This document shows, in pieces, positions 25,898 through 62,294 of a stretch of 64,000 bases of DNA. Positions within the stretch are counted from its first letter, which is position 1. The number at the start of each line of letters is the position of its first letter. Below the pieces are notes generated by a model, which had not been told where the DNA came from, made no database searches, and was given only the letters and a program-made list of their open reading frames with translations. Source of the stretch: Macrostomum hystrix (Eukaryota > Animalia > Platyhelminthes); assembly GCA_950097015.1 (NCBI GenBank), contig CATNEN010000039.1:12896001-12960000 (forward strand), in the 5' to 3' direction. A program made the translations under genes and the position numbers.

Positions 25898-25946
<49 letters not shown>

Positions 25947-29328: not shown

Positions 29329-31345
29329 GCAGTCTATCAGCCTGCACACGGAACTAATTTATTAAACACTGTGAAATGGTGCGTGGGATTCCTTTTGCAC
29401 TCCAATTGCTGAGTGATGGTATTATGGACATTGAATTGACACATTAAAGTAAATTGTTTTGTGATTTAACAAATATAATATATATATATATAAATTCAAG
29501 AGCAACAACATTCCGAAACAAATCGGCAGGTTGCATTGAAGTTTCATGAAAACTACAGCAAAAATGTATTCAGCGATTTCCTGCCTTCAACAACCCCCAC
29601 TCTCTCGACCATAGACTATTCCCTTTGAAAGAGTCCAGCTAAACCTACGAAAATTAATGTAAGAAAAGTAAAAGTACACTAACATTGAAATCAGAGACCG
29701 CGTTTTCTCTCATTTCATTATGGGCCCTAAAATATATTGTACAAAGTTTTCGTCTGAAATCCGGCAACAATCGAAAAAAGCCGGCAAACAATTAAATTAT
29801 TACCGCAAGTATGAATGCCGGAAACCATAGACAAAAGGGTACAATTTATTATATCGAATGCCGATGTAAATAAAAACCAAGTAAACTTCGAAACTATAAT
29901 TTGCTTTAATATAACAAAAAATGTGGTTAAACATTGTCAAAACGCCGCTGAGGGAGATAACAGGCCTGTTCAATTTACAGCTTCTCCTGCGATGCAAGTG
30001 GGCACGAAGCGCAGCATCGGCCGGTACCAACCTGCAGATTTTAAAGGTGTGATGAGGTGTGAATTAAAAAAGTAAAAAATAATACTAAACATTTTTTGCG
30101 TTTTTTTCTATAAAAAAGCTCATTAAGTTCACGAAGGAAAAACGAAAGAAAATCGATATGCTGTAATCGTACTGTAAGCGCTGTAGGAATTGCTCACGAG
30201 AGCGCTCAAAGTCGCTGGCAGCTGTTCAGGGCTCGCTGCTTTTGATCTCTCTAGACTCATGGCCCGGGGGGCGGCAGGCAACAACGGGTTTCATATTGAG
30301 TAAAGACTCCAGGCAAGTAAGCAACTCTTTTAGTCCGCGTTTGTAGTGGCAAGAATTATAAATTACCAACTAAAAATAACATTCAAATAACAAACACTAA
30401 ACTCTATGTGACTGAATGAGTTATGCAATTTTAAGTTCCATGGCTAAAATGCTTTTATTTCAAGGTTTTTAGCTTCATCATCTCGGACACATATACTTTT
30501 TAAACCTGTATTTCACTACAGGTCATTGAGTCGCATTTATGTGAAGTTCACAAAGGTAAGTTTCAGGTGTTGCTGGAGATACGAGTGTATGGGGCCAGTT
30601 TTATAAATATAAAGCCAGCTGATCTCTAGCGTATTCTATGATTTGAAGTCCTATTTTTTATATTTTGAACTGAGACACCAGCTTTGAGGTACAGACGATG
30701 TGATAATCAGACATTCACATAGACAAATGAAACAGTCAGGAGTAATTTTTAGAAAAACAAGGCTCGTTTGATCGATGTCGTATTAGCTTGAGAATGCTCC
30801 ACTACGAGTATATCAAACTCTGCTGTTTTAAGTTTATTGAAAATCGATTGGATTTCTACTTGGCCAGGCTGCAATGAACTGATGAGCAGCTATGAGGATA
30901 TTAGTCAACTGAAAAAAAACTCCAGCAAAACACCGTCCACCTGCTTTCCATGCTATATCCTCCAGACGATATGAGACAGTCTGACATTCTTTGAAACCAA
31001 CAGAGCGAGAAAAACAGATCCTCCGCCGTCCTACCCTTTGCTCACATTGAAAGAGGAAGAACTAGCGAGGACCAATTGCGATCAAAACAACACATGGTTT
31101 AAGAGTTGCAGTGGATCTTCGGAGGACAACTGGAGGTGGTCAGTATTACCCTCCACCCCTTTAACAGGGAAATATCTCAATCCTATGACTAGGAAATCAT
31201 TTCTTGCTAGCTCATAAGGTCTTCTTAAAGACAGCATAGGATGAGCAAGTCTGAGTCCGATCTATGAGTCCAGTGGGGATACAAATCCGGTTCATACCGG
31301 TTCATAAGCAGATGTTGCAGACTGTCGCACCACCCTCGAACTGGC

Positions 31346-31355
31346 TTTATAAAAG
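31346..31355 (+). promoter_or_regulatory. Candidate TATA box of WSC paralog 2
   Basis: TATAAAAG ~120 bp upstream of ATG 31468. Confidence 0.4.
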
Positions 31356-31467
31356 CAGTCGCTGAGACGTTAAACGGGGGCTAGGGCTACAAGACTTGTG
31401 ACAGTCATCTGCTTCTGTACCTTAAAAGACTTGTGTACTGCCGCCCTTTACCTTTGAAACAAACACA

Positions 31468-34400: not shown

Positions 34401-37400
34401 TATCGATTTTTCAGAGAGAGCCCTTATTCAAGGAGTGACGTCGGACACCATCGGTGAGTGATGAATCGGAAATTCGTAGTTGAATACTCGCGTTTCAACA
34501 AAATTATACGTACTCTTGTGTTAACGACGTTCCTATTTACATTTTAGGCAAACTGGTGACGATCAGCCAAATTCGTGAGTTAAATTAGACAAAAATAAAA
34601 GCCCGTGTACTATTGTATTTTACACCACACAGCAAACACCGGCTTCGTTAATCTACTCGGAACAGAGATGCGCACATACGGCTGCTACAAGGACAGCGGT
34701 GAGCGCGACCTGCCGCAGTTGGTCTTCACCGGAACTCTCAGTGTGCACTACTGCCGATGGACCTGTCGGCAGCTCCGCTACCGCTTCTTCGGCCTTCAGT
34801 CCATCAGCCAGTGCTTCTGCGGCAACAGCTTCGGCCAGTACGGCCAGGGGGCGGACTCCAACTGTCAGTTCAAGTGTGGCGCCAATCCCGACCAGATCTG
34901 TGGTGGCGTCTGGTACAACAGCCTCTACGCCAGCGGCATCTCCGTGGAGGGTGAGATATACGACCCGCTCAATTAAACACTTTTTACTGATATTTTTGTC
35001 CAATTTCTGACGCAAATATATGACAATCGAACGGCAGAAGCCGAGATGAAGCCCCTTGGTTGCTATGTGGATAAGCCAGACCGCGACCTGCCACTGCTTG
35101 GAACCCACTGCCCCATCATCAGCATCAACACCTGCGTGACCACCTGCGCCGATCTTGGCTACAAGTACGCCGGAGCCCAGGCCGGTGCCTGGTGCTACTG
35201 TGGTAACACCTACGGACGTTACGGCAAGGCCGAGGACTCAAACTGCTACACTCGCTGCCACGCTAACCGAAGACAGATGTGCGGCGGTGGCTGGCATCAG
35301 CACATCTACGAGACGAAAGCTGACAGTAGGTTGCATATAATGCTGCAATCTATCATCTAAAATGCTATAATATAATGCCTTTCATTGTACCTTTCATCTT
35401 CAGCCACGAACCCTGAAAGCCTCGGCTGCTACAAGGATCAGGGCGTCCACGACCTCGTCGAGATGGCCCTGTCGGGTGTGGTCAGCATTAACTACTGCCG
35501 GAAGCTGTGCCGCAACCTGGGCTACCGCTACGCTGGTTTACAGTACTCCATGCAGTGCTGGTGCGGCAACAAGTATGGTCGCTATGGCATGGCCGATGCT
35601 GCCAACTGCAACATGAAGTGCACTGGCCATCACGAGCAGATCTGCGGCGGCGTGTGGCACAACAACATCTACGAGAGCGGCAAACCTGCCTGTGAGTTTT
35701 TAGTTTACTTTTCATGTTAGTCATAATCTGCAAATGTTCGTTCGCTCAGGATCCCAGATCATAGATTTCTGAGATCATCTTTGTACATCGTTTTTGCCTA
35801 GAAAAACGCATGTAGCCGCAGAATATTAAGCCTTCCGCCTAAGGCTACAGACATTCAACATTTAAAAGGTCGGAATTCGACCCTTTGTCAGCGTCTGACT
35901 TTAATTGACGAGTATATGAACGGAATGCATTACGCACTTCTGTTGCTACTTGTGGGTAGTGGATTTAAATTATTTCTGACTCAATACCAACACCAACTCA
36001 GTCTACTTCAAGAGCATGGGCTGCTATAACGACAAGGTGGTTCGCGACCTGCCTTTCCTGGCCAAGATCGGCCTGGTGAACCTCAACAACTGTCGTCAGT
36101 CCTGCTGGCGCTACGGCTTCAAGTACTTCGGTGTGCAGAACGGCGACCTCTGCTTCTGCGGCGACAGCTACAACAAGTACGGCAGGGTCGATGATGTTCG
36201 CTGTCAGAAGCGCTGCCTTGGCAACAATGCCCAGGTTTGCGGAGACCTGTGGCTCAACAACATCTACGAGACTGGACTCGGAGGAAGTGAGTCAATTTTC
36301 CCAGTCTCCAAGTGCTTCTCCACTGCTTCACTTATAATAAGCATTTTCACAGTCAGTATCAACAACCAATATTTCAAGGCGACGAAAGCGACTACGCAAG
36401 AGAAACTGAGGAAAACAAGTCGCAAGAGAAGACTCAGCCAGATGAGACATCCACAGTCATTGATGGCAACAACGAAAACGGTGAGTGGATTCGCCTCTCG
36501 ACAAAAAATATTATCTTCACCACTTAGATATTTGTTAAAGCGTGATTGTAAATACTTTTTTCAGAGCCATCCATCGACAAGGATACCGATACAGAAGTGG
36601 ATACAAGTAAACTTGATTTTTATGGCTCTCTGTTCACCTATTACTATTACCGAAAAAATCTAATTTGCATGAATTATATAAATGAGCAAACAAAGGGCAC
36701 CTGCAGCCTTCTTTTAATTAGCTTGTAGATATGTTCTCAAGAAAACAGCTAAAAGGACATCACTTCTAAGTCCGCCACGCTAACGCCTGCAGCTTGTTTT
36801 CGTCGAGATAGACTTTCTTACGCTCAGATAGATACGGGTGCACGGGGCTTCAAGCTCGAACTATTCTCAGCTCTCGTAATGCCCGACTTGAATGACTAGA
36901 TTAGGCAAAGACGTGACAAGAATAATTCAATAGAACGGCAAGCTTAATGGCTTGATCCTCAAAGGAATAACTCTTTACCTATACAAAATGGAAGTGACGG
37001 TTATGACTAAATAACAACAGCTCAAATGAGCACGGGTGCCGTCGATCGGTTTAATGGACTTTAGCATCCATCAATAAAGCCACTTTTAATGTAGATGCTA
37101 GTAGCTCGCTTAAATCGAAGTATGGTAATAAAGACGGTGAAAAGTGTTTTTTTTCTCTCTCTTCCCTACTCGCCGCTACAGCCGTCAAGTACAAGGGCTG
37201 CTTCGCCGACAAGGCTGCCGACCGAGACCTGCCCGACCTGGTGTTCACTGGCACCGCCACCATCCAGCTGTGCGTGCGCCTGTGCGCCCGCCGTCTCTAC
37301 CGCTTCGCCGGTCTGCAGTCGGGCACGCAGTGCTTCTGCGGCAACAGCTTCGGACGGCACGGAGCCGCCGACAGTAACGACAAGTGCAATGCTCGCTGCC

Positions 37401-40400
37401 GCGGCAATGCTCAGCAGTTCTGCGGAGGAGCTTTCTTTAACACCATCTACTCGACCGGATTTGCATGTGAGTAGTTTGTGAATATGAGAATTCTAAGCAA
37501 ATATACTTATGCAGAATTCATTCCAATAGACATACATCCCAAAAGTAAGTTTCGGTCAACAATAAGAAGCGAACAGTTTGAAGGAAAGTCTTAAAACTTT
37601 AACAGTAGTCAAAACAAGTCATAGTTTGCCAAAATGACTAACCGCGTTTGCCAGAAATGTACTTAAGAAAATGTATACTGCAGCGAAACTTATTTTTGGG
37701 ATAGCCCTCGTATGTGATTTATCAGCCCTATTGGTGCTTGATACGATAATTTATTGTGCGTAATTAGATTAACTCACATTAGTATTGCCGAAGTCATAAA
37801 CTACACAGCTTATTCATAAGCATAATTTTGTGTTTGTTGCAAGACCGATATGGTAAATAACTCGCCTGCGGTCTAGTTGACTCTGCTAGCTAGAGCAAAC
37901 TTGTCCGTTACCTTACAGGGAAATTCACAAGCAGGGGCTGCTTTGTTGACCAGGCGGCTAGGGACCTCCCGGTGCAGGGCATGAGCGGCCAGGTCAGCGT
38001 CAACCGCTGTTTCAGGCGATGCCGAGACCTCGGCTACTTCTACGCCGGTGTGCAGGCTTCGTTCCAATGCTTCTGCGGCAACCAGTACAATCGCTACGGC
38101 AAGGCCGAGGACGCCAAGTGCAACCAAAAATGCCGCGGCAATCCGACCCAGACCTGCGGTGGCGTCTGGCACAACAACATCTACAGGACCACCTTCAAGA
38201 GTAAGCACCTTCCTGTTGCGTTTTATTATTGAAAAAACTAGAATAATTGATTGGTTAAAAATAATTCGATTGATTACACCTGCCCCAATCGGGCCAGATG
38301 TACAGCCGACAGCACAGCCGTAGCTATTGCGCGGCCCATCCGAAGGCTGCGTTCAGCTGTTCAGTCCATGGACTGGGGGACGCCACACCCACCCCCAATT
38401 ACCCCAGCTAATGCTGGTACAGATTAATAGCTGGGTGAACTGATGCGATGCAGAATTAGGTGTCTTGTCAAAAGAAAACAAACTGTTCCTACGGGGTCGG
38501 AGTCGGGAATTGAACCCGCCGACCTTCAAATCGTGAGTCGACGCTCTAATCAATAGGCTTCAACCCCTATTGAAAAAACTATAGTGCTTGCATAACACAT
38601 GATATTTTCCTATCCTAATTTTCAGAAATCGCTCGCACAGCCGTTGGCTGCTTCAAAGACTCTGCCGATCGTGACCTGCCAGAGTTTGTGGAGAAGGGCC
38701 TCATGACTGTCAACCTCTGCATCAACAAATGCTCAGAACTGGGCTACAAATATGCCGGTCTGCAGGGCGGCAACACCTGCTACTGCGGCAACAGCTACGG
38801 TCGCTACGGCAAGGGCGAGGCAACCATCTGCACCAACATGTGCTCAGGCAACAGCAACCAGATGTGCGGCGGTGCCGAGTACAACCTCGTTTTTGAGACC
38901 GGCGTCACAGTCAGTGAGTTCCAGAGGACAGGAGAACAGTAGAGGACTCAAAAAAGCACTATTACAGTCCCTGAGACGACTGTGTCTACCGAAAAAAACT
39001 TATTATTCAGGGGAGCAATGATATCTGAAGCGAAGGCAAGGCGGTGGTAGTTGGCGAGAGGCGAGTTTCGACTCAAGCCATTCTGAGCAGTAAATTTTAG
39101 CAGATGAATAATTAAGTTCGAAGTATTCAAACTATTAACGAAAGTTGAAAGCAAGCTTTAATTTGTTACTCTAATTTTTTAAAGGAAGAATTTTGCTTGT
39201 GTGTACAGGGCAAAAGAACAGTGCACTCGGCACACGTACTGAGCGAAGCATGCCAGGCGAGACAAAAAATGAGAAGTTTAGAGACTTACGCAATACCATT
39301 CCGATTAAACTACGAGTAATATCATGATAAACGCTGGTTCCTCACATCAACGCCCACCTTGTCAACGCAAATTCAAATGTTTCAGCTGAATTCACCAGCT
39401 TGGGTTGCTTCGTGGACAAGGCCACCGTTCGCGACCTGCCCTTCCTGGCTCGCAGATCCAAGACCAACCTGAACAACTGCCAGCGCCTGTGCAGCCGCTT
39501 CGGCTTCCTGTTCTTCGGCGTGCAGAATGGCAACGAGTGCCGCTGCGGCAACTCCTATGGCAAGCATGGCAAGGCCGAGGATGCGAACACCTGCAACGCC
39601 AAATGCGACGGCGACGCTTCGCAGACATGCGGTGGAACGCTGGTGCAGAGCGTCTACTCGACGGGACTTTCTAGCGGTGAGCTAGCACTGCGGTGCTCAG
39701 GGGATATTGTCAGATGAATAATCTAGTTTTTTAAAACTACCGATATAACTGCCACTGACTGACCATTGGATTGCACATACGATGGTTATTTATCTATTTC
39801 TCATTTTGTATGTTAGTATAGCATCAAAATTCTTAAAACTCTCTTAGATTCGATCATAATCAGCGAAGGAATCAGCAGTACTGAGTCGATCACTGGCAAT
39901 TCGATTGAGATCGTCTTGGGTGATATAACAACTAGTAGCAGCTCAACTTCGAGTTCAAACCTCGCTGATGGAGGTGAGATTATTCGCGTGATTCTGTTAT
40001 ACTGTTCCGAGTTTTGACACTTCTAAAGCAAATAAAACCACTTATGCATTGTCAGGCAATACCGTCATATCATACGAGTACATTTGGACATTCATCGGAG
40101 CCGATGGTGAGTTTTACTTTTTAGCACGTTTGATATGCGTTCACTGATTTGCATAACTTCCATTTAAGCTTCTTTGAATTTCTATTGATGATTACATGCA
40201 CCCATTCACACTTGATAGTTATTATTTAAATTGCTCCATAAAGATAAAAATCTAATGATTTCGAACGAATGGTGGTCCTAAATACTGCAATAATTCACAC
40301 ACTGCAGCCCTGGATCAGCTAAGCTTCGGTTGCTTCAAGGATGCCGCAGACCGCGACTTGCCAACCTTGGCCGAGAGCTCCAGTGCAGTGACTGTCAAGC

Positions 40401-41274
40401 GGTGCGTAAAGCTCTGTCAGGACAAGCGGTTTAAATTTGCCGGCCTGCAGAACGGCAAGGAGTGCTGGTGCGGCCAGCAGTTCGGCAGATACGGCCCAGG
40501 ACAGGACAGCAGCTGCGACAAGAACTGCGCCGGCGACGCCACGAAGAAGTGCGGCGGCGACTGGCACAACTCGGTGTACACCACTTCTCTGGAGAGTGAG
40601 TGCTCAGGATTCGGGTTAGGGTGGAAATCGGTTGGGGGGGGTCAGTGGCAGAGCGGTCTAACGCGTTTGCCTCTCGTGCCAAGGTCCCTAAGTTCGATTC
40701 CGCGGCGAGGCCGAGTCATAGCACATGTACACACTTGTGTGAGCGTATGCCTGAGCATGGTATCTGTGTGCGTGTGTGCTCAGGAGTCAGCGAATTGGGC
40801 CGAATTGCCTCCTCGCTGGCTGCGGGTCTAGTGTCACCAAATGATGTGCCATTGCCCGCAGCCCTCCTGCAATTGTTATTATTATAGGGTGGAAATCGTC
40901 ACAAAACAATTAAATGGCAGTTAATAACGGTTGGGACTGTTTAAAACTATCAATTTAGTATTTTCTTATGCGGCTGCTTTACTGTAGACTGTAGAGTCAA
41001 TGTCAATCTTTATGTAAGGACAGTTTTAAAGTTTCGATGCATCGAACTCCACTGTTTTCTGGCGTTCAAAAAGTATAGAAATGGAACAACAAACGAAACC
41101 TAAAATACCCTAAATTGCAGATCTGCAGGGCATCTCCTACGTGGTGGCTGGACCTACTCAGGTGACTATCACCTCGTCGGAGTCTGGTAAGTGAATCAAC
41201 TAGCTGAGGTTCCCAGATTGTAATTGGCTGACGATAATGAAATTTTATTTTCAGTGGTCCAACAGAAGAAGTGA
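31468..41274 (+). CDS. Secreted multi-WSC-domain protein, paralog 2 (13 WSC domains)
   Basis: Signal peptide MRSAFSVLAAVCLLATMSLPDSVFS. Thirteen WSC exons colinear domain-for-domain with paralog 1. Terminal exons give ...LQGISYVVAGPTQVTITSSES|VVQQKK* with TGA at 41272-41274. Confidence 0.92.
31648..32000 (+). mobile_element. SINE family A copy (intron 1 of WSC paralog 2)
   Basis: Full head and body; short flanking repeat ATTCTCA. Confidence 0.87.
38363..38560 (-). mobile_element. SINE family B copy
   Basis: Reverse complement has GGTTCAATTCCCGACTCC, CAAGACACCTAA, CACCCAGC, CAGTCCATGGACTGAACAGC. Confidence 0.75.
40631..40884 (+). mobile_element. SINE family A copy with internal deletion and 14-bp TSD
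   Basis: TAGGGTGGAAATCG at 40617-40630 and 40885-40898; tRNA head and TTA tail retained, mid-body missing. Confidence 0.88.
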
Positions 41275-42262: not shown

Positions 42263-42752
42263 CATTATAGGACTACCAAGCCATTTTGCCGACCGTTTTT
42301 ATACCAAGGGGGAATATTTTGGCAGCGCCCGAATGCTAACAGCGTTGGGTGGTGACTGATTGGCTGCAGACTAAACGATGGTGTCCTGTGGTTGAGCTGC
42401 GCCTAATATTTTGGCTTCATCAATGAAATTGGAGAAATTCGCGTCAGGGTGTCCATAGTGGCCTAGTTCCTGTTGTAGCCCTTGAAGGTCCAGCAGTCCG
42501 TCTAGATAGACCGCCGAAGACGGAGATGATGCAGGCACATTCGGGTGACACAAGCTGATAGATTTTGAGGGCCTGGCAAGGCCGCACTGAGGCGCAGTGC
42601 TAATTCGTGAATAGGGGTGGGTGTATGAAATATACTAGCGCTTATGGGAAATCAGACCTTCGGCCAGAACCATTGAATATCTCGACGGTCTAAAGAGCTG
42701 GCGACTTGATTCTTTTATTCAGAAGATGCGTAACAAAAAGTTGGCCGTGTGC
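42263..42752. mobile_element. Partial copy of the TTAA-flanked palindromic transposon family
   Basis: TTAA then ..AGGACTACCAAGCCATTTT..TATACCAAGGGGG terminus, plus an arm matching 16390-16660. Confidence 0.78.
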
Positions 42753-46515: not shown

Positions 46516-47022
46516 AAAGGGTTTAGTGGATGCTGAAGATTATAAAGGAGCTCTAAATGCTGACTGCGAAACGGAAGTTATCGTCCCTGCACGAAGATAA
46601 CTTTGAAGATAAAAACTCAGGGCAGCCACCCCCAGAAGAGTATGTGAGATACTGTTGCGAACTCCGCGTGGTTGATTAGATGACAGTGGCTGCAGGTTGG
46701 CTGCCACTAAAAGTAGCACTAGTTTTCCCACCACACTGCAAACAGACTTCAAAGAGACAATTTCAGCGACCTCGGAGAGCACACATTATGCATCATTCTG
46801 GTTACCAAGGCTTAGCAACCATCGCGAGTTTATGTTCGTAATAGAAAATGAAATAAAAGGCAGTCTATCTCATAAATTTCCGATATGATTTATGACTCGC
46901 GATCCTGTTAGACCGCGCGTCGGATATTGTGGATTTCATATGTTACCGCCCCATATGAAAGCCGGTGCCGGGGGCAGAAAAATGCCCTTTATAAATAAAT
47001 AACACCCCATGGCTATTCTAAC

Positions 47023-47958
47023 CACAGATTCTATATTACCTAGATTGGTCACTCATCGAATTTGCAATAGAAACTGCGTCCGCCAGCCGTCTGCCGCGAA
47101 AACCCAGAGTTTTGCCCATAGACAGTTAGACAGATAGAAAATTTATTTGATGGTCTATCGCTCGCTCAAAACTCGCTGGCTGTGAGCTTCTGCTTCGCAC
47201 GTTAGCCATGGAGCTGATCATCAACCGTCTTAGTAGCCACGCTTGTTGTGCAGCTGCCTGCTATACTACAGAGGACACTCTAGCTTCAGTGCATGGATTT
47301 GCAATCCATCTACACAAATTTCCAAGCGATGACCAGGTAGCAGTTCGTTGGATAGAGATACTTGAATTACGCGATGTTGACTTGAATTTTGTGCGGCAGC
47401 GGAGGCTGAAAGTGTGCAGTCTGCATTTTAAAGAAACCGATTACTCCTGCCCACTACACGAACGACGTTCAGCTCGACTTAGAAAAGATTCCCTTCCAAA
47501 TCCCTACACTTTTCCACCACGCTTCGAGAAGGAATCGGTTGAAGTCGAGCCGCGACCAGACCACATTGCTGACAACATGTATCCACCAGTACTGCATCGT
47601 GAAGACACGTACGCTGTCGAGATGCCTGAGCTACACGCAATGCCAGCCGACGCTCAGGATAAAACTGGTTCAGAAGATAGGGCAACAAACAACCGCAACG
47701 AAGTTCGAAAGGAGCGGAAGAAACAGCGGGATAGAGCTCGATATCGAGATGGAGTCATCAAGAGATTAAAGCAGAAGCTTCAAAGAGCTTCAACTGCCAC
47801 TTCTGAACAGCAGAAAGTTGCAACACGCCGAATTCGAAATCGCGGTATGCACTGGAATCGCAAGCAGGTGCGAGAAGCCATTGTGATTCACCACTTGAGT
47901 TTTCGATGAACGAACGATTTCTCTTGGAGTGACCAATCTAGGTAATATAGAATCTGTG
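47023..47958 (+). mobile_element. Internally deleted P-superfamily DNA transposon (936 bp)
   Basis: Perfect 32-bp TIRs CACAGATTCTATATTACCTAGATTGGTCACTC (47023-47054, 47927-47958); 8-bp TSD ATTCTAAC (47015-47022, 47959-47966); contains a THAP ORF. Confidence 0.92.
47208..47909 (+). CDS. THAP-domain + coiled-coil protein (N-terminal part of a P-type transposase), 233 aa
   Basis: C2CH THAP motif CCAAAC...HKFP...W...VCSLHF...LRKDSLP, a basic coiled-coil region, and GMHW..AIVIHHLS resembling the start of the P transposase core. No catalytic region. Confidence 0.85.
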   Translation: MELIINRLSSHACCAAACYTTEDTLASVHGFAIHLHKFPSDDQVAVRWIEILELRDVDLNFVRQRRLKVCSLHFKETDYSCPLHERRSARLRKDSLPNPYTFPPRFEKESVEVEPRPDHIADNMYPPVLHREDTYAVEMPELHAMPADAQDKTGSEDRATNNRNEVRKERKKQRDRARYRDGVIKRLKQKLQRASTATSEQQKVATRRIRNRGMHWNRKQVREAIVIHHLSFR

Positions 47959-49924
47959 ATTCTAACTGCTACCTTTAGAAGTTTCAGCTTACATTGTAGA
48001 ATTTAATAATAGCATATTTAACGACAAAAATTTATTAGAAAATAAATCATTTAATAAGCAATGAGTTAGATAAACGACGCCTATTAAAGAAGGGAAAACA
48101 TGAGCGTAAAGGGACGAGGAAGCTTTTGCCTGCTGTGGGGAAGCTGGGACTGAGACAGGGCAGCAAAACTGACAGGCCCAATTTGTCTGGCAGCCTCCAG
48201 TGAATGATTCATGTCACTAAACTGACAATGGGCTGAGGAGCTGTCGGCGTCTGTCTGGCTGGCTAAGTGGAAAGTTTGCGGCATTCATCTGGGGCCTTTC
48301 ACTTGCCGGCCTATTTGCCCACGGGTCAGGGAGTGGTGATGGCTGCCTGCTCTGCGACGTTACCGCTGTACTGGCTGGCAGCTGAAACTAGAGAATTCAG
48401 GACGCCGTCAGGACCGTCTTGGCGCCAGAGTGCTGATGGCTCAGGCCCAGTAAGAAGAGATGTAAAGCGAGCTGCAGGATCTGGGTGTGAGCAGACTTAA
48501 GTCTGACGATGGTGCGGGCTCCAAGCTGCTTAATAATTAATCCGGCTAAGTCGCCATCTGCTTGCTGCGCGCTTGCGCCAAGTCTCGGTGGCTGGGACAG
48601 GGGGAATCAGAGCAAAAATCTCAGCAATAACAGAGAACTGTTGGGGCTAGGGAGGCCGGAACGCGTTAGAGGCTAGTTCCACTGGGTTGCTCGTCCAGCT
48701 TCGCTTCATGCTCTTCATCATCTGGCCGTCTCGCCGCCTGTAACAATGGAAGAACGAGGAAGGGAGTGCAAAAAACTTCACTTCTCTTGGTTGTGGAAGT
48801 TTCCAGCTAGCGGGCAGGTGTCGCTGGGAGAAAAGTTACTGCCGGGGTGTCGCGTTCGCTCACGAACTCAGCCCGTGGCGGATAAGGAATTATTAGGGTG
48901 GAGAGAAGAGAGACGCCCAGTTGGCGAGAAGAGTTAAGAGCTGTCGTGACATCCGTCTTCTCTTCTCGATGCGTTCCCAGGCCCAGCGCGATAGCGGTAG
49001 AGTGGGCTTTGAAATCGCATCGTAAGAATCCCCGTTGCGGCATCATTTGCTTCCCACTACTCTTCCCCGAGCTCTCGGACTTTGATTTTGATTGACGGCC
49101 CTCTTAATTTCCAACGGACCGCCGAGAAAAGGTCTCGCGATCGCCCACGCAGGTCCATACTCCAAAAAAGCCCGCTAGTGTTGACCATACGGCCTCTGAG
49201 AGTGACATGCCAGGTGTTTTGATTTGATGCAGCGGAGAAAGCGCGCTAGTAAAAGTTATTTGGCTTCGACACTTTCTGGCGAAGCGGAGAAACGCTAGGA
49301 TCTCGGGGCAGTCACGAAGAGCAATTAGGTTGGGATTGGCTTTTATAATTTGACTTTTCAGGGCGCTGCAAACTCCGGGCCTGCCATCTAGCCGCTCTCT
49401 TACATATGCCTGCTTATCTGTGCTAATTAAATCAAAGCCACAGTGCCGCAAATATGGAAGTCCTCGCACGTCGGATGTTCCGACCCTCGGTCTAATGATG
49501 GCCACCTAATGAAGTGGCTTCGACCGGGGCACTTTCATCTTTCCTCATATCTGCCTGCTGGAATCTGCGGGAGACTTTGTTGCGGACTGAGCCACGGCAG
49601 AGGAACTTTCCTCCGGTTGCCTGAGACGGAATCTCTAAGCGCACTTAAGTGGCGACGCAGTTGAAGTAGATATCGGGCTGCCGATCTACCACGGAAGCTC
49701 CGGGGATCTAATAATTTGAGCAATGGAAAATTTACTCTTTGCAATGGAAATAGTATTGCAGAGTACTTTAGTTGACGAGAATTGAGCAGATATGATTTGG
49801 GAAATCGTAAACATTCAGACTTGCTTCTAGGATTGCTGCTTCTAAAAGAACCTCACACTGAAATAAACTTTAAATTCAATTCTAGACATAATCGACTGCC
49901 TCCATCGGAAGCGCGCTAGTTGCC

Positions 49925-50815
49925 ATGGAGACAACCGCAGAAATCGTTTCTACGAGCGCCGCTCCTGTCGAAGCCGGTGCAGAAATCGATCGAACGATCC
50001 GGCTGATCTCCTATGCCGAGCTCGTCACGATCAGCATCATCGGCACCATCGGCAACTCCGTGGTGCTCTACGTCTACTCTCAGAAAAAGGACAAGCAGAC
50101 TGCCAATATCTTCATCCTCTCTTTAGCCGCCTCCGACATGATCGCCTGCACCCTGGTGATTCCGATGACTCTCTTTATGGAGCTAGCTGACTTTCGCACC
50201 CACCTGATTGTCTGCAAGCTCTACTACCTGGTGAATGCTAGTGGCATTCCGTTCAGCTGCATGCTGATGTCTGCCATCGCCGTGGATCGCTACTTCTGCA
50301 TCTGTCGTCCGTTCCTGCGCGCAATCACTCTGCCCCGCGCCCGTGCGATCGTGCTCAGCCTTGGCGGCCTGGCGCTGTCTCTGGGGATCACCACGGCAGC
50401 CTTCTGCAGCGGGGTGGTCGCTCAGACCGGACCGAATAGCACCTGGGAATACGCCAGCCAGGGCCAGTGCAAAGAAATTAACGACATCAACAAGCTGAAC
50501 GCTAGCGCTCTACATGTTTCAGAGGCCAGTCTGGCTTTCTTCCACGTGTTCCAGCGGGTTCATGTATCATTGTTTGGCATCTGCATATCGCTGGTAGTTG
50601 CTCTCTACATTTGCATCTATCGCTCTGTGCTAGCAATGCGACGGAAGCGTCGCGAACTGAAAGGCCACCAGCGGCTCAATCCTAGACGCTCTGCAACAGG
50701 AGAAGAGGCGCCGGCCGCTTCTACTCCGGCGGCTGATTCGGCTGACGTTGTAGCTGCAGCCACACCGGCTTCGACAGAGATTTCTCCAAGCGATGAAGCC
50801 AATCGAAACCTTGAT

Positions 50816-50846
<31 letters not shown>

Positions 50847-51187
50847 CGCTAAAGCTGCCTTTGAAGAAAAGACGCCGGTCCGTTCTGCCATCGCGAGACA
50901 GCGACGCCATTCAGAATCTGAAAACGGCGGCCATGCTGTTCGTTGTAGCCGTGGTGTTTTCTTGCACATTCGTCCCGGCCGCTTTAATGATTGTCAACCT
51001 GGCACCGTTCAGCCTTCTGATCTTCTACCTGTACTACATGGCCCACGCCACGAACCCGATCATCTACTGCTTCATGAACCAGAACTTTCGCGACGATCTG
51101 CGTCGCATTTTCTGTCGCGAAGGCCGCGGTGCCGCAGCCGGGGCGGCTGGCGGGCCAAGAGCTGCTCTCACCCACGGCACCATTTAG
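49925..51187 (+). CDS. Class A (rhodopsin-like) GPCR, probably a peptide receptor, single coding exon
   Basis: TM1 GTIGN, TM2 LAASD, DRY motif (AVDRY), TM6 TFVP, TM7 NPIIY, helix 8 NFR; long ICL3 with polyQ. Confidence 0.93.
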
Positions 51188-51431: not shown

Positions 51432-52490
51432 GACTACCAAGTAGGACTACTTCGAATCCCATCAGCGTTGGGTGGTGACTGATTGGTTGACAGACTAGGT
51501 GATGGTGTCCTGTGGTTGAGCTGCGCCTAACAGTTTGGCTTGATCAGTGAAATAGGAGAAATTCGAATCAGGGTGTCCATAGTAGCCTAGTTCCACCTGT
51601 TGTAGCCCTTGAAGGTCCAGCAGTCCGTCTAGATAGTTGGTGACCGCCGAAGACGGAGATGATGCAGGCACGTTCATGGGGGCGAGTGGGTCAGCGGCTA
51701 GCGTCGCTGCCTCGCACTCCAATGGACGCTAGTTCGATTCTCCCTTCAAGTCACGATTAATTTCGGGACTTGTTGGAGGGTTTGGACAGTAGCGACCGGC
51801 GGGGGTGCACCATATATCGTGCAATCAAAGCTTGAAAAAATAGCTTCGCTCCTACCTTCTGTGTGCCTGTTCTGCGTTGTGTGAGTTGTGTGCGTTGGCG
51901 CTGGGGCGTGCGGCCTTGCGGGGGGTGGCTGGGGGGCGGGCGTACACCGCCGCGCGCTTTCTGGATTTCCGTCAGTGCGATTGGATAAGTGTACACTCAT
52001 CATTCGGCCCCCCCCCTGAGGACTGATTTCAAATCAGCCTTCCGCCCCGGCTTGGTCTGCTCTGTGCGTGTGGGGCTTGGTTGGGGGCACTGCTGCCTAT
52101 TCTGGGTGCCTCCTGCCCTCCCCGGCTGGTCTGTGCTGCTGCGTGTGGTGCCTGCTCAGGGGAGGCAGCGCGATGGGCGCTAAGCGCCTAGTTCGCTGGT
52201 TTGGAGGCGTGCCGCTCCGTCGCTTGTGCGACAAGTGCCCTGGGCCCCCTGCAAATAGATAGATAGATAGCAGGCAGGTTCGGGTGACAAGCTGATAGAT
52301 TTTGAAGGCCTGGCAAGGCCGCACTGAGGCGCAGTGCTAATTTGTGAATAGGAGTGTATGAAATACACTAGCGGTTATGGGAAATCAGACCTTCGGCCAG
52401 AACCATTGAATATCTCGACGGTCTAAAGAGCTGGCGACTTGATTCTTGTTTCAGAAGATGCGTATCAAAAAGTTGTCCGTGTGCTTGCCT
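51432..52490. mobile_element. Copy of the TTAA-family transposon interrupted by a SINE
   Basis: 51465-51675 and 52270-52485 match 42340-42750 contiguously once the insert is removed. Confidence 0.78.
51676..52269 (+). mobile_element. SINE family C (~590 bp; tRNA-like head, (ATAG)n tail)
   Basis: GGGGCGAGTGGGTCAGCGG...GTTCGATTCTCCC head, AATAGATAGATAGATAG tail, near-perfect TSD GCAGGCA(C/G)GTTC. Confidence 0.72.
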
Positions 52491-55137: not shown

Positions 55138-58100
55138 TCAGCTGTCTGTGGATTCGTCAGATTCGTCCTCCTGCAGCAGACGCAATGGCGCTGGACAGAA
55201 CCGGTCCGGGCTAGACTTTCGTTTCCGCTGTCTGTCTAGCTCCTCCGAGTAATCTAGCAAGTCCAGCACGCAGCTAGTCAGGCCGGACGCTGGAAAGGGC
55301 ATGGCGTGCGCCGTGCCTGTACGCTTTGCTCGAGGTTCCAGCCACTCCACGGACGCCATGATCTCCTTCTCGCTGGGGCCGCAAATGCCGCCAAGTAGAA
55401 AGATACGATCGTCTAGAATGCAGCAGCCGAAGTTGCTGCGGGGTCGGCTCATCTGTGAGCACGTTGGCGGGATACAGAGGGCTGAGAACGAGCAGAAGTC
55501 TATTCTGATTGGGGTTCAAATGGTGCTTCAGAACCAAATCAATGATGGCGTGCATGAGGATAGCTTTTGTTGACGACTTCAAGGAATAATGTTAAATGAT
55601 TCGGTGATCGCAGTGTGAAATAAAAATAATTACAAGAGGGTTGCGGTACATCGTTTGGTGACACTAGACCCGCAGCCAGCGAGGAGGCAATGCTGCCCAT
55701 TTCGGTGACTCCTGAGCACACACGCACACAGATACTGTACGCAGGCACACGCTCACACAGGTATGTACATCTGCCCTGACTTTCTCATCGTCAGGCAGTG
55801 TACACTCTCACTGTGCCTTGGAGATTGTGGAGGTTGGCCCTCAAGGGTGTAAATTGCACGACAAGCCCCCCATGCAGGAGGCTGAGGCAACTGGGGTGAC
55901 ACTATAGACCTGCATACAGGAGATTAGGCACGACACTGCAAAATACTGGAAATGACATCGGCAATCAGGCAATTCTGTCTAAAATATTGAGTTTTACGTA
56001 AATCTCTGGCTCGCCTGACCTCGCAGTGATTTCGCCAGCCGCGAGACTCGCCAAGCCAGCACTCGACGCTGCGCAACCAGCCGGACGAGTTCCGACCGCA
56101 CAGCGCGTAGACACCGCCACCGTCCGGCAGGGCAACAAGACCAAGGCCGGTGCGAGGCGAGGATAGGAATCCGGTCAGCACTGTCCAGTCGCCAGTTGTC
56201 GGGCAGAATGCCTCGGCCGTGTCGAGATGAACTCGACCATCGAAGCCGCCAACAACCAGTAGTCGGTTTGCGAGGGCTACGGCAGCGGCTTCGCAGCGCG
56301 GCCTGCGCAATGGTTCGATGGCCACCCAGCTGTTGTCAGAGGCACGCATGCGCTCTACGTGGGTCAGGCGGCGCTCGGCAGTTTGACCGCCGATACTGTA
56401 CAGACAGTTGTCCATGGCAGCGCAGCAGTGGTAGTACCTTTCGAATGGAACAAACTGGACGTCGTGGATTCTATTTTAGGTTGACACTTTGTAGTGTATT
56501 TTTCAGTAGGGTAAGTGGCAGAGCAGTCTAACGCGCTTGCCTCTTTCATGCCAAGGTCGCTGAGCTCGATTGCACGGCGAGGCCACATTCATTTGGGGCG
56601 CAGCCGCAAAGAGAAGGCTTGGGGCTTGTCTTGCAATTTACGCCTTTGAGGGCCAACCTCCATGGCACAGTGAGTGTGTACACTGTGCTGAGGAGAAAGT
56701 CAGGGCAGATGTACGCACGTGTGTGAGTGCGTAGTGCGTGCCCGTGTACAGGATCCGTGAGCGTGAGTGCTTAGGAGTCAGCGAAATGGACAGAATTGCC
56801 TCATTGCTGGCTGCGGGTCTAGTGTCACTATATGATGTGTCAGTCAAATATTATTATTATTATAAATGCATTTTCTTCCAGTCTGCACAACAACGCACAG
56901 CAATTGCTCGGCGCTCTGTAATTACTCTGTACAGCTGTTCAGTCCGTGGACAAAGGTGTCTTCCACGCATACACGAATGTCTACCCCAGCTAATACAGGA
57001 ACGCATTTCGCTATAGATTCTAGTGATCAAAGCTCTTACCAATGTACTAACTGAGATAATCATCTGCTATAATAAGTTTTTTGCAGGACAGCTGTGTGCA
57101 CTGGAACACAATTTGGTGACCATGAACCTGGAGCCAACGAGAGGCAAACGCGTTAACCCCCCTGCTTTCAATAAAAACCTTCTCATCTGCAATTCTCACC
57201 TGGCCTGCAGCATGCAGGAGCCCTCGTACCAGCCAAGGTGCGGCCGTCGCCGATCGAAGCACAGTACCGACTTCAGAGCCTCGGAGCCACTGTAGCCGCC
57301 AACGAAATGCACAACATCGCCAAGTAGAGCGCAGCAGGCGTGCGATCGCTCGTCCAGCCAGCCAAGTTGGTGTCGTTGCGCCTCATCGGGCGAGCGGAGG
57401 TCCCACACATCGGCGCGAGGATCGTACACCTGGCAGAAGGCTGTTGGGCCCTGTCGGCGATACCAGCCACCGAGCAGCAATAGCACCTGCGAGAGATTTG
57501 ACGGCAGCCAAAATATTGAAAGAACTTCAAATCAGCTCTCATTATTCATGTGATTGCTATAAATATACATTTGCACATGGAATCACTTGGCAATATGTAC
57601 TCGTATTTGGTCACTGTTAAACATATTATCTGATAGCAGTAGTCAGAAACCTTAACTCCCACGCCAAAGTGATGATATAAATATGACAGCCTGCTGAGAT
57701 GAAGGAGATAAGACACGGAAGCAATGAGATATAGAGGGATTATACTCGTACAGTGCTTAATGGTGTTGCACGGGGCTAAAAGCGGGAGTTGAGTGGGAGA
57801 GCCGTCTAACGCGTTTGCCTCTAGCACCAAGGTCTCAAGGTCGATTCCGCGGCGAGGCCACATTTATTTGTGGCGCAGCCGCGAAGAGAAGGCTTGGAAG
57901 GCTTGCGAGTCTTGCTGTTAACGCCCTTTAGGGCCAACATCCAAGGCACAGTGGGAGCGTACACTGCTTGACGCTGAGAAAGTCAGTGCAGATGTACTCA
58001 CCTGTGGGAGCGTATGTCTGCGTACAGTATCTGTGTGCGTGTGTGCTCAGGATTCAGCAAAATGATCAGAAGTGCCTCCTCACTGGCTGCGGGTCTAGTG

Positions 58101-59987
58101 TCACTAAATGATGTGCCATTGCCCGCAGCCCTCCTGCAATTTTATTATTAAGAGGAAGCGGATTTTGGAGTCGGAGGTTGACAAACCTTGAGCAAGGAAG
58201 CAAATGCGACAATTAGACATGGGCCACGCACCTGATGCGGCCAGCGGGGTGGCTTGGACTTAAGCAATTTGTCCTGGTGCCGCTTGCTGAATTCGCTGGG
58301 AAGAGGGTAGGCGCGCGCAAAGTCGAGAAACCCATCGTTGCAGCTGATCACGGGCTCCCTTAAGGCGGCCTCGAACTCCTCAGTCTCCATATGGCCGAAG
58401 CGAACACAACAGAGCAGTTGCTCAAGCTGCAGCTGCAGCTGATCCTTTGGCTGTTTTTCATGCCGCAGCTGCAGCCACTGGCCAATTGTCTGAAGCACCT
58501 GAATTGATTGGGAGAGAAAATTGTAGCAAAAAATCCGACAAGTGCGAAAATTGCAACTGATTTCTCGCAACTGACTTACCTGCAGCTCAGACTTGCAGTT
58601 GAGCAGCTTGTGACCGAGAATTTCAGCCAGAGCGTCCGCTTCCAGCCGTAGGAAGCAGTCAGTCTGATTGAGCTGCGAGAACGAGCGCAGGAGGCAACGC
58701 AGGCTGACCTGGGTCAGGTCGGGCAGGTTAAACGGCCTGGCGAACTCCCAAACAGCCAACGCGGCCAGGACGTCAGCTGAGCAGCGTCGGTTAATGAAGC
58801 GAAGGCACATGGCGCGCAGAGGCTCGCACAGGATAAAGTCAGCGGCAAGGAACAACGGCAGGCAGGTGTCATCGGCTACTCGCAGGTGGCAGCAGCGCAG
58901 GCTGATGCCGCTGAGGGCGGCAGAGATGCTGTCGCCGATGCAGCTCAACCAGCCGAGACGCAATTCGACGAAGCTAAAATTGAATTAAATTAATGGGCCT
59001 CTCTAGATTCATGTGCCTTTTAAAAACCGGAAAGATAATAATTTTCATTACAGAAAAAGTGATATTTTGAGAATAAGAAACTAAAAAGGTAAGTGAGATT
59101 GTGTCAATAGATTATTATGGACACAATAAGAATTACTATTATTTATTATTCGCAGGAGGCCTGTGGGCACTGGCACATCATTTGGTGACAGCAGACAGGT
59201 GGCAATTCTGCCCATTTCGCTGACTCCTGAGCACACACTGATGGCACACACACATAAATACCGTACACGGGTGTTTCACACAGGTGTGTCCATATGCCCG
59301 GACTTTCTCATCGTCAGGCAGTTTACACTCTCACTGAGCCTTGGAGGTTGGCCTTCAATGGCGTAAATTGCACGACAAGCCCCCAAGCCCCCAGGCCAAA
59401 TGCATTTGGCCTCGCCGCGGAATCGAGCTCAGGGACCTTGGCGCGAGAGGCAAACGCGTTACACCAACTCACCCCAACGAATCACTAGGGACATCAAATG
59501 CTCACTACAGTAATTGAAGTAGTTGTTCATCCGGTTTTCCCTGATTAGAAAAAGCTTATTTTTCATAGCCTCACACTATGATATTGCTACAATCAGCAAT
59601 ATCAAGCTATAGTAATATAACTTTCTAATTAATTAGGTAGAAATGACATTAGTTAAATCCCAAGTCTCACTTTTCCTGGCTGTATTTGAACAGCGAGCTG
59701 AAAAATCCGCTGTGAAAGCCAACGGAGAAGGCATTGACAGACTTGGTGGCACCACAGTTCACGAATGCGATTGTGTGCGTGTTGAGAAAGGACAGATCAG
59801 CATCCAACCAATCCAGGTCCTGGCAGGCGATGAACTCTCGATAACGCGCCTGCAGATGATGAGGCATGAAGCCGCTGGCCAGTTCCTCCATCATCAGTGG
59901 GAAGGCCAGCTGGCGCAGCGCAGCGCAGCCGCTGTTGCTCCAGTTGCACTCATGTCTAATGTCACTGCCCTGTGTATTTATCTGCAT
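55138..59987 (-). CDS. BTB-BACK-Kelch protein, KLHL10-like
   Basis: Exons ~59987-59669 (BTB start, ..HSGFFSSLF), ~59542-59508, ~58975-58580 (BTB end/BACK), ~58499-58232, ~57487-57200, ~56438-56020, ~55453-55138. Kelch GG..W repeats. Spliced PRWPHQ|VLLLLGGW...PT...YDPRADVW resembles KLHL10. Orthology not tested. Confidence 0.85.
55625..55871 (-). mobile_element. SINE family A copy, 5' truncated
   Basis: Body and tail match; no tRNA head. Confidence 0.8.
56508..56862 (+). mobile_element. SINE family A copy
   Basis: Head, body and (TTA)n tail. Confidence 0.85.
57790..58149 (+). mobile_element. SINE family A copy
   Basis: Head with GTCGATTCC, body and TTA tail. Confidence 0.85.
59140..59476 (-). 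mobile_element. SINE family A copy (diverged)
   Basis: Reverse-complement match including the head. Confidence 0.78.
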
Positions 59988-60253
59988 CGCGTGGTCCAAG
60001 GACTCGCTCTATTGGTCTCCAACATTCAGCTGGAGCAAGCTTTCTTCTACTAAGGAATATTCGAATAAAATAATAAAAAAGTGAAATCTCATGACTATTA
60101 TATCTCACGGAAGCATGAATTTAATGTTTAGAAGCAGCTGGCTTTGTCTATGTCATCACTCGACGCGCGTATTTTCTCTAGCACAAATAATAGTGCACAC
60201 TTTTGGTGTGCGCAAAACAAGTTGCTTCAACTTAATATTCATAGTGAAATATA

Positions 60254-60851
60254 CATTTTTACGTTCTATTTGATAAAAACTGCAACCAATTTGGCCACGG
60301 CTCAGCCTGACGCAGCCGCAGCAATTTTCCATAGACAGCCGCCGCTAGCAGCAACCAATTTGGTAAAAACTGCGAGCTATTTTGCCAGCTTGAAGATATC
60401 ATTCCTATCATCTTATCATTCTTATCATCACTCTGATGGCGAATCGTGGGCCGTACCAAAAGATAAGTGAGCTGGATCGAGAGCGAATCGTGAGAGCGTA
60501 CAGGAATGGCGACGACTGGAGAGAGCTTGGCAGAATGATGGTCGGCTGCCATCAGTGCCACTTCATTCATTCTTAATGTTATGAATTCGTGTTCTGACTT
60601 CTGACTGAGGACATATTGTTATCATTCTTTATCGTTATTGTTATGCTATCGCTCCCTATTTCGCTACTGCTGTTGACAGGGCAGGTCAAATACAGCAGTG
60701 AGCTGCTATCTTCAAGCTGGCAAAATAGCTCGCAGTTTTTACCAAATTGGTTGCTGCTAGCGGCGGCTGTCTATGGAAAATTGCTGCGGCTGCGTCAGGC
60801 TGAGCCGTGGCCAAATTGGTTGCAGTTTTTATCAAATAGAACGTAAAAAGG
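60254..60851 (+). mobile_element. Mini Tc1/mariner/IS630-like element with ~145-bp TIRs
   Basis: Near-perfect inverted repeats (~60254-60399 vs ~60707-60851), TA on both flanks, internal 46-aa ORF resembling a transposase N-terminal HTH. Exact termini uncertain by ~10 bp. Confidence 0.8.
60436..60576 (+). pseudogene. Truncated transposase N-terminal HTH fragment
   Basis: MANRGPYQKISELDRERIVRAYRNGDDWRELGRMM..., below the ORF-track cutoff; pattern resembles Tc1/IS630-type first HTH. Confidence 0.55.
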
Positions 60852-61014
60852 TATATTACACCTTTCCTCGCTCAATTTTGGCACAGCTGCAGTCTATTCT
60901 TCTCAACTTGCTTTCAAACCCGAAAGTTTATGGTCAGTCCCTACCATAGATATTATATACCTGGAAGGTCCTTATTAGGTTTTCATCCGATTCCGACAGT
61001 CTCGCAGTCTATTC

Positions 61015-61058
61015 CACAGATTCTATATTACCTGTATAACGGTAATATAGAATGTGTG
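61015..61058. mobile_element. 44-bp remnant (probable excision footprint) of the P-superfamily element
   Basis: CACAGATTCTATATTACC-TGTATAAC-GGTAATATAGAATGTGTG, i.e. the terminal 18 bp of each TIR, between 8-bp direct repeats GTCTATTC (61007-61014, 61059-61066). Confidence 0.85.
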
Positions 61059-62294
61059 GTCTATTCTGACACTTAGCAAGCGTTTCAGACAGCTTTCGAC
61101 ACTTGTCATTCATTCATTGAATTCATTCATTTCCGTCAAGGGGGTGGCTTATCCCTCCTTTGCCTTGCTGTCTATGGCATGAAAGCTGGCTCCATAAGTT
61201 CAATTCCGACAGATTGCAAGCATATTGTACAGTTTCAGCTTATGTTCACCCCCTAGTTGTGGCTGCTCCCGTTGTCGTATTGTCATGTCATGTCACATTG
61301 TCATCTGCCTGTCATCTTATAAAATCGCGTTCGAGTATATAAACGAGAATAAAATGAAGATTGAAGCTTTCTAAATTTTTCATTAAAGCGACATGTTTTG
61401 CAAGATATTACTAAAAGAACAGTGATCTGCTTCCAATAAACGTTATCAAACATTATAATATGAAATAAAGTGAAGAAATCCCATTTCGCTAGTGCATTTT
61501 TCCGTGAAAATCTGCCTCTAATAAATTTACCAAAATGAATTACCCTGTCCTTCTTCTTCTAGTGTGTTGTGTATTGCAAAACTCTAGAATGCCAGATTAT
61601 ATTAGCAAAATTAGAGATTGCAAAGATACGAGCGGGATAGAGCCGATTTAATAAAACGCTATAGGGAAATGAATGTATCTGTATTAAAAAATCGAGCTAG
61701 GTTGAATGTTGCACCCTCATAGACGTGTCCGTTGGGTCCGAAGCTCTAACAACTAAGGCTAAGAAGAGGCCTCGTTGATTTTGCAGGTAATTTGATAGTT
61801 CTTGATGGAGTTTTTATCATTTTTAAAAGTGCAAATGCTTTTTAGACGACAACTAGAAACTTTTATGATTTGCTGCAACAGGTTTAAAATAAAATTAAGC
61901 TAAATTAAATTAATTAAACTGAATTTAATCAAACAATTAGAACTTTTTTTACAACTGAAAAAGTTACTGCACTCCATTTAAGAGAGACCCCGGTGAGAAC
62001 GACTAGAAAAACTGTTGCCAGCTCTGCCAAAATCCTACTCAGGTGCCGATAAATTACCGATAAAATAATTGCTTATAGTTTTTTCTCCCATCCACATAGA
62101 GCTACTGGGGCCACTAGCTACCTAGCAGGGTATGACAATTAGCGGAAGGACACTCCGCGTAGAGCCAGCAAACCTGGTGGCGATAATGGCCTGGACAGTC
62201 AATATATAATGCTTCGCCTATCAGAATGCGTTGCGCATGGTGGAAACGTAGGAAGCTGCTCTGACTTCAAATTAGCGACCTAGATCTGCTGAAG

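What the first reader, a model, noticed from the sequence alone, without database searches (positions are those of the whole stretch)
61007..61066. Probable P-element excision footprint preserving ~18 bp of each TIR
Seen: GTCTATTC | first 18-19 bp of the left TIR | ~8-bp filler | last 18 bp of the right TIR (one mismatch) | GTCTATTC, using the same TIR as the 47-kb element but a different TSD. Established: Drosophila P transposase makes 17-nt staggered cuts, so end-joining repair typically leaves ~15-18 bp of each TIR between the TSDs. Inference: this family was active in the germline and uses the same unusual cleavage geometry in a distant lineage.
Basis: partly seen in the sequence, partly recalled or inferred. 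Interest (0 to 1): 0.76.

Follow-up and report, generated by a model that had tools for sequence, protein, structure and literature searches.

The report
Flatworm P-transposon scar suggests longer cut
This 44-base palindrome is likely the repair scar left where a P-type jumping gene cut itself out of what is likely a flatworm genome, and together with three similar scars it suggests that the enzyme likely cuts 18-20 bases into the element's ends rather than the 17 known from fruit flies.

Summary
Confirmed. Two identical 8-bp target duplications enclose 19 bp of a terminal inverted repeat (TIR), a 7-bp filler and 18 bp of the other TIR. The parent is a 936-bp element AT position 47 kb (not 47 kb long): 32-bp TIRs, another 8-bp TSD, and a truncated THAP transposase whose relative matches fly P transposase (E 2e-24). 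In the one sequencing run that holds the locus (possibly the source sample), the scar is at single-copy depth, an empty version of the site exists, longer element copies continue into the transposase, and three more TIR-to-TIR joints have different fillers. A micro-MITE is therefore unlikely. The eight stubs measure 16-20 bp (6 of 8 at least 18, none above 20). A rough model gives 61-94% to an 18-20-nt stagger and 0-14% to exactly 17. So 'P-type footprint' is supported; 'same 17-nt geometry' probably is not. Limits: four scars, three without visible TSDs, no cut-site assay. This scan noted similar 18-20-nt scars before in other genomes (unchecked notes). New variant of a known kind; interest 0.45.

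The parts
61007..61014 (+). left target-site duplication (8 bp)
61015..61033 (+). left TIR stub, 19 of 19 identical to TIR positions 1-19
61034..61040 (+). 7-bp junction filler; no significant template in the TIR (2779 of 5000 shuffles reach its 4-nt match)
61041..61058 (-). right TIR stub, 18 bp, one mismatch at 61054
61059..61066 (+). right target-site duplication (8 bp); a contig joining 61006 to 61059 shows the single-TSD empty state
60866..61216 (.). multi-copy host repeat into which the element had inserted (summed contig depth 260-1100 on parts of the flanks versus 73-78 on unique parts)
47015..47022 (+). left TSD of the parent element (ATTCTAAC)
47023..47054 (+). left 32-bp TIR of the 936-bp parent element (starts CA)
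47208..47909 (+). truncated P-type transposase ORF (233 aa): THAP domain, a basic segment aligned to the fly dimerization region (via P0002), start of the HTH domain
47899..47900 (+). internal-deletion junction of the parent: other copies leave the window sequence behind 47900 (in frame into the transposase) and before 47899, a 2-bp overlap
   Evidence: table 7; frame; translation by eye
47927..47958 (-). right 32-bp TIR, 32 of 32 identical to the left
47959..47966 (+). right TSD of the parent element
60937..60975 (+). possible second, older, one-sided scar of a sister P-like family: 23-bp insert starting CATAG between 8-bp repeats that match 6 of 8; other copies of the host repeat lack it. 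Weak: 1 of 27 rows of a permissive scan

Best explanation
The 44 bp between the two identical 8-bp duplications are likely the end-joining scar left when a P-superfamily transposon, of the family whose 936-bp deleted copy lies at 47,023-47,958, was excised by a staggered cut that likely falls 18-20 nt inside each terminal repeat. Shown: a copy inserted into a host repeat and duplicated 8 bp; today only the outer 19 and 18 bp of its TIRs and a 7-bp filler remain; the family carries a THAP/P-type transposase; three more TIR-to-TIR joints with other fillers exist. Inferred from fly P biochemistry: transposase cut one strand at the element end and the other inside the TIR, leaving long non-complementary 3' tails of TIR on the donor chromosome. 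A polymerase-theta-like alternative end-joining step copied short templated stretches, joined the tails and filled the gaps. The scar passed through the germ line or stem-cell line. The footprint reading alone has about 0.88; the added 18-20-nt length brings the whole statement to 0.65.
For: Anatomy and chance controls. THAP domain E 3.4e-10. Relative P0002 is 49% identical over 231 aa and carries THAP, RNase H-N, GTP-binding and weak HTH domains; its only PDB match is fly P transposase 6p5a, E 2.4e-24. Contigs of run X1 leave the 936-bp copy behind 47900 with 30 letters that read, by eye and in frame, PAAYRFLRKQ against PAAYKYLRQQ in P0002. Scar core is covered by one contig at depth 72.7, like unique flanks at 74.3 and 78.4; a contig with one TSD skips the 52 bp. 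Three further joints have stubs 16/19, 17/20, 20/20 and fillers of 22, 10 and 34 nt. The 10-nt filler is an exact copy of TIR positions 4-13 (0 of 5000 shuffles). The 34-nt filler holds three copies of the reverse complement of TIR 15-20 (by eye), so positions beyond 17 served as template. No stub exceeds 20 although the TIR is 32 bp. Fly Rad51-null junctions have the same layout (PMC2895639 Table 1).
Against: Only four scars (8 ends). TSDs of the three extra joints are not visible. The laying tool missed the window's own scar, so its list is incomplete and biased to long exact stubs. Three of 4 fillers show no significant single template (449, 519 and 2779 of 5000 shuffles). The TIR's own internal TAG motif could be copied next to the tip and inflate stubs to 20, so 18, 19 and 20 cannot be told apart. 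The empty-site joint has only 27 letters on its short side at 85% likeness and probably comes from a paralogous repeat copy. X1 may be the source sample. The trimming prior comes from Rad51-null flies. No full-length transposase of this family was read and no cut was mapped.
Confidence: 0.65

Rival explanations
1. P-type footprint with the fly's 17-nt stagger; the extra 1-3 matching bases come from templated filler, chance, or very short homologous synthesis before end joining.
For: 17 nt is the only length reported in the papers read (PMC7776569). Two of 8 stubs are 16-17. Detection favours long stubs. Under the strictest detection bias and a high extension probability k=17 reaches 14%.
Against: Six of 8 ends carry TIR position 18 and 5 of 8 position 19, including both ends of the window scar (19 and 18), which was found without the laying tool. 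The 34-nt filler repeats TIR 15-20 three times. k=17 gets 0-5% in 8 of 9 model settings.
Confidence: 0.2
2. Excision cut at or near the element ends (no long stagger), and the stubs are extremely short aborted gap-repair (SDSA) copies from the sister chromatid.
For: Aborted SDSA plus end joining is the commonest product in wild-type flies (PMC2895639 passage). The 936-bp copy itself looks like such a deletion product.
Against: Aborted synthesis should give broad tract lengths. All 8 ends fall in 16-20 and none in 21-32 or beyond, although longer stubs are easier to lay.
Confidence: 0.08
3. Transposase-independent deletion of the element's interior across the inverted repeat (hairpin or cruciform slippage).
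For: The TIRs are perfect 32-bp inverted repeats and the scar folds as a hairpin (z -9.1).
Against: Slippage would be expected to leave flush or microhomology joints at varied positions (general knowledge). All four joints carry inserted filler and end in a 5-bp window.
Confidence: 0.04
4. A mobile 44-bp micro-MITE that inserted as such.
For: Both termini are retained and the TSD is perfect.
Against: One contig at single-copy depth covers the core. All four fillers differ. It lacks TIR positions 20-32 and internal sites; in fly P the inner TIR half is bound by the HTH domain and internal sites by THAP (PMC7776569).
Confidence: 0.03

Closest known systems
Drosophila melanogaster P element and its donor-site end-joining junctions (P{wa}; PMC2895639 Table 1; review PMC7776569; transposase structure PDB 6P5A)
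   Same: 8-bp TSD, CA...TG ends, TIR of 31 versus 32 bp, THAP-HTH-RNase H-GBD transposase (full set seen in the relative P0002), internally deleted copies, scars made of TSD + TIR stub + filler + TIR stub + TSD.
   Different: Fly tails are 17 nt (insertion-class stubs: 10 of 36 ends at 17, 14 at 16; my count from Table 1). Here 6 of 8 ends are 18-20. The host is likely a flatworm and the scars are natural genomic ones, not induced.
Zebrafish Pdre2 / THAP9 (PMC10983969)
   Same: Non-fly P-like element with 8-bp TSD and internally deleted copies; excision shown in cells.
   Different: 13-bp TIR plus subterminal repeats. The sections read report larger flanking deletions and map no stagger length; supplementary figures with junction sequences were not seen.
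Macrostomum lignano hypothetical protein BOX15_Mlig018125g3 (P0003)
   Same: Closest named relative of P0002 (43% identity, E 3e-127; RNase H-N and GBD domains).
   Different: Unannotated; its TIRs and scars could not be read here.

Membership tests
P superfamily DNA transposon (parent element) | [quoted passage not shown] | tested here: met
   PF05485, E 3.4e-10, residues 13-97
P superfamily DNA transposon (parent element) | 8-bp target-site duplication | tested here: met
   2 of 2 sites whose flanks could be read; flanks of the three extra joints not visible
P superfamily DNA transposon (parent element) | TIRs of about 31 bp with CA...TG ends | tested here: met
   32 of 32 bp perfect TIR; fly value from PMC7776569
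P superfamily DNA transposon (parent element) | HTH, split RNase H with D-D-E triad and GTP-binding insertion domain | tested here: inconclusive
   Met in the 49%-identical relative P0002 (acidic residues align at the first two fly catalytic positions; alignment ends one residue before the third, where P0002 has E). For this family only 10 further HTH residues were seen, by eye.
P superfamily DNA transposon (parent element) | GTP cofactor requirement | not testable with these tools
   needs biochemistry
P superfamily DNA transposon (parent element) | Fly target-site preference (14-bp palindromic motif, PMC2577343) | tested here: inconclusive
   4 of 8 core matches at both sites, reached by about 10% of window 8-mers
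Drosophila-type P excision footprint | Both TSD copies and both outer TIR stubs kept, interior lost | tested here: met
   empty single-TSD state
Drosophila-type P excision footprint | Stubs capped at 17 nt | tested here: not met
   6 of 8 ends are 18-20 bp; k=17 gets 0-14%. It works like a fly footprint, with a likely longer cap.
Drosophila-type P excision footprint | Variable, locally templated fillers | tested here: inconclusive
   4 of 4 fillers differ; 1 of 4 significantly templated from the TIR, a second by eye; the window's own filler is not
Drosophila-type P excision footprint | Dependence on transposase and polymerase theta | not testable with these tools
   needs genetics
MITE (micro-MITE) | Many near-identical copies at different TSDs | tested here: not met
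   single contig at single-copy depth; 0 matches of a TIR-gap-TIR pattern in metagenome contigs (uninformative for this host)
THAP-bearing hAT element (recalled rival with 8-bp TSD) | hAT-type catalytic and dimerization domains | tested here: not met
   P0002 hits only P-type Pfam families and PDB 6p5a

The most novel reading that the evidence does not exclude
The very long staggered donor cut is an ancestral, bilaterian-wide trait of P transposases, but its length is family-specific. This flatworm family cuts 19-20 nt in, so the looped-out A-form end of the fly transpososome must tolerate or measure a different register. The cut depth of any P family can then be read from natural scars without biochemistry.
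Probability: 0.5. Interest if true: 0.65.

Novelty: new variant of a known kind. Interest (0 to 1): 0.45.

Why it matters
[quoted passage not shown] Natural scars in a likely flatworm would extend the long stagger to a distant animal lineage, suggest that its length varies, and give a genome-only readout of cut position that a simple cleavage assay can test. The family looks young (body contig differs at 6 of 727 positions; one scar at about 0.3 of single-copy depth), so it may still be active. The single scar on its own is a harmless 52-bp insertion inside a repeat.

Tried and rejected
No whole genome is held, so no genome-wide stub histogram was possible. Runs X2 and X3 (another organism) matched only two 18-19-bp pieces each: no evidence. 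The TIR-gap-TIR pattern found 0 matches in metagenome contigs. The search for related loci with P0004 found 50 pattern matches and 0 confirmed relatives. The other three GTCTATTC sites in the window (19632, 55498, 60892) are not paralogous empty sites. The fly target motif test was inconclusive. No shared subterminal repeat of 8 bp or more was found within 160 bp of the two element ends. The permissive one-sided scan gave 27 rows, mostly from a dispersed repeat family; only 60945 was kept as a weak candidate. The THAP-hAT rival was rejected on domains. Paper searches found no report of natural P-type scars or stagger length outside flies (0 papers in 50, 51, 57); the library lacks most subscription journals. 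Beall and Rio 1997, Majumdar and Rio 2015, Majumdar 2013 and Ghanim 2019 were not held. Scan look-ups by place and by sequence returned nothing.

Full report
Observation. The sequence at 61007-61066 is as described. GTCTATTC lies at 61007-61014 and 61059-61066. Between them are 19 bases identical to TIR positions 1-19, a 7-bp filler, and 18 bases of the opposite TIR with one mismatch at 61054. The expected number of chance matches to the TIR 18-mer in the window is 1.5e-4 with one mismatch. A generic scan for an exact 8-bp repeat around a 20-80-bp insert with inverted ends finds only this site, and nothing in 12 of 12 shuffled windows.

The parent. It has perfect 32-bp TIRs and its own 8-bp TSD. 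It encodes a 233-aa ORF with a THAP domain (E 3.4e-10). A search among longer proteins gave 1 hit among 520 candidates, P0002 (639 aa, 49% identical). P0002 carries THAP, RNase H-N, GTP-binding and a weak P-type HTH domain, and its only solved relative is fly P transposase 6p5a (E 2.4e-24). The window ORF stops inside the HTH segment. Contigs of run X1 leave the window copy behind 47900, exactly at a codon boundary, with 30 letters that I read by eye as PAAYRFLRKQ, against PAAYKYLRQQ in P0002. So longer copies with this same body exist, and the 936-bp copy is an internal deletion. Contig depth is 369 on the body against 71-88 on the flanks, and higher on the TIR bins; loose ends show other flanks at both termini. 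The tool warns that depth is not a copy number; I use it only as 'one' versus 'several'.

Host. The best named relatives of P0002 and of a window GPCR are Macrostomum lignano proteins (43%; 47% and 42%). The host is likely a free-living flatworm; the species is not determined.

Is it a scar? One run holds the locus (X1, 0.94 of words) and may be the source sample, so it is not independent. In it one 108-bp contig covers 60985-61092 without differences at depth 72.7, like the unique neighbours (74.3, 78.4), and no other filler appears at this site. A contig joins 61006 to 61059, skipping one TSD plus the 44 bp (depth 84, 27 letters on the short side). Because the flanks are a multi-copy repeat, this is probably a paralogous copy, but it still shows the single-TSD ancestral state. 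Laying X1 on the parent element (28 records laid; tables cut) gave three TIR-to-TIR joints: stubs 16/19 with 22 letters between (depth 77.6), 17/20 with 10 (72.6), and 20/20 with 34 (21.9). Their TSDs are not shown, and the window's own scar is missing from that list, so it is a biased lower bound.

How deep is the cut? The eight stubs are 16, 17, 18, 19, 19, 20, 20, 20; none reaches 21 although the TIR runs to 32. In Rad51-null flies the 17-nt tails give insertion-class stubs mostly of 16-17 (24 of 36 ends, my count from Table 1 of PMC2895639). Using that trimming profile, three chance-extension rates and three detection rules, a stagger of 18-20 gets 61-94%, exactly 17 gets 0-14%, and 20 is the best single value in 8 of 9 settings. 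The 10-nt filler is an exact copy of TIR 4-13 (0 of 5000 shuffles); the other three fillers show no significant single template (449, 519, 2779 of 5000). By eye, the 34-nt filler holds three copies of the reverse complement of TIR 15-20, so bases beyond 17 were available as template at the break. Against over-reading: all three 20-bp stubs are preceded by a base pattern that the TIR's own internal TAG could have templated, so 18, 19 and 20 remain open.

Mechanism. Shown: insertion with an 8-bp duplication, loss of the interior, retention of TIR stubs, variable fillers, P-type transposase in the family. From established fly work (PMC7776569 passages and section 8; PMC2895639 passages and section 7): transposase cuts at the end on one strand and inside the TIR on the other, and alternative end joining with polymerase theta makes templated insertions. 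Inferred: the same happened here with tails of 18-20 nt, in a cell line that was inherited.

Comparison and novelty. It works like a fly P footprint and the parent meets the testable P features, but the 17-nt cap is not met. Nine paper searches found no report of natural P-type scars or stagger length outside flies. I read the abstract and sections 3, 6 and 10 of PMC10983969 and passages of PMC8230255 and PMC2577343; none maps a non-fly cut, but their supplementary junction figures were not seen and four key papers were not held. After I had noted the longer stagger (note), a look-up showed six unchecked notes of this scan on similar scars in other genomes, three of them naming 18-20 nt. They are leads, not support; they show the scan has met this before, with far larger samples.

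Verdict. Real and well explained: a P-type excision scar (about 0.88), probably recording a longer stagger than the fly's (0.65 for the whole claim). New variant of a known kind. Interest 0.45: useful to transposon specialists as a distant-lineage data point and a directly testable prediction, but resting on four scars.

Noticed in passing
window 60937-60975: 23-bp insert starting CATAG, loosely like the P TIR (12 of 20), between 8-bp repeats matching 6 of 8; other copies of the host repeat lack it (joint 60944 to 60977). Possible older one-sided scar of a sister family; its target matches the fly motif core 6 of 8.
   Followed up: partly
window 60240-60861: About 620-bp element with 158-bp arms 98% complementary; left end starts CATAG like a P-type TIR, right end lacks the last 4 bases and no TSD was seen. 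It directly abuts the repeat that holds the scar.
   Followed up: partly
window 15876-16645: Inverted repeat with 267-bp arms, 93% complementary, 236-bp spacer; likely another MITE or foldback element, with partial copies near 42550-42714 and 52270-52477.
   Followed up: no
window 22000-40830: Long array of cysteine-rich repeated exons, by recalled motif WSC-like domains; not scanned.
   Followed up: no
window 7646-13657 (minus strand): Multi-exon gene with tandem domains that look like C-type lectin domains (recalled motif), mannose-receptor-like; not scanned.
   Followed up: no
window 49925-51187: Single-ORF rhodopsin-family GPCR with a poly-Q tract; best named hits Macrostomum lignano and orexin/CCK-type receptors.
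   Followed up: partly
window 55924-58984 (minus strand): Exons of a BACK-Kelch protein.
   Followed up: no
window 5607-59389 (about ten copies, e.g. 25715-25900, 57956-58141): Dispersed ~190-300-bp repeat family on both strands, possibly a SINE or MITE.
   Followed up: no
run X1 contigs laid on 46963-48018: One TIR-to-TIR joint (stubs 20/20) has depth 21.9, about 0.3 of the single-copy level: possibly a segregating or recent excision.
   Followed up: no
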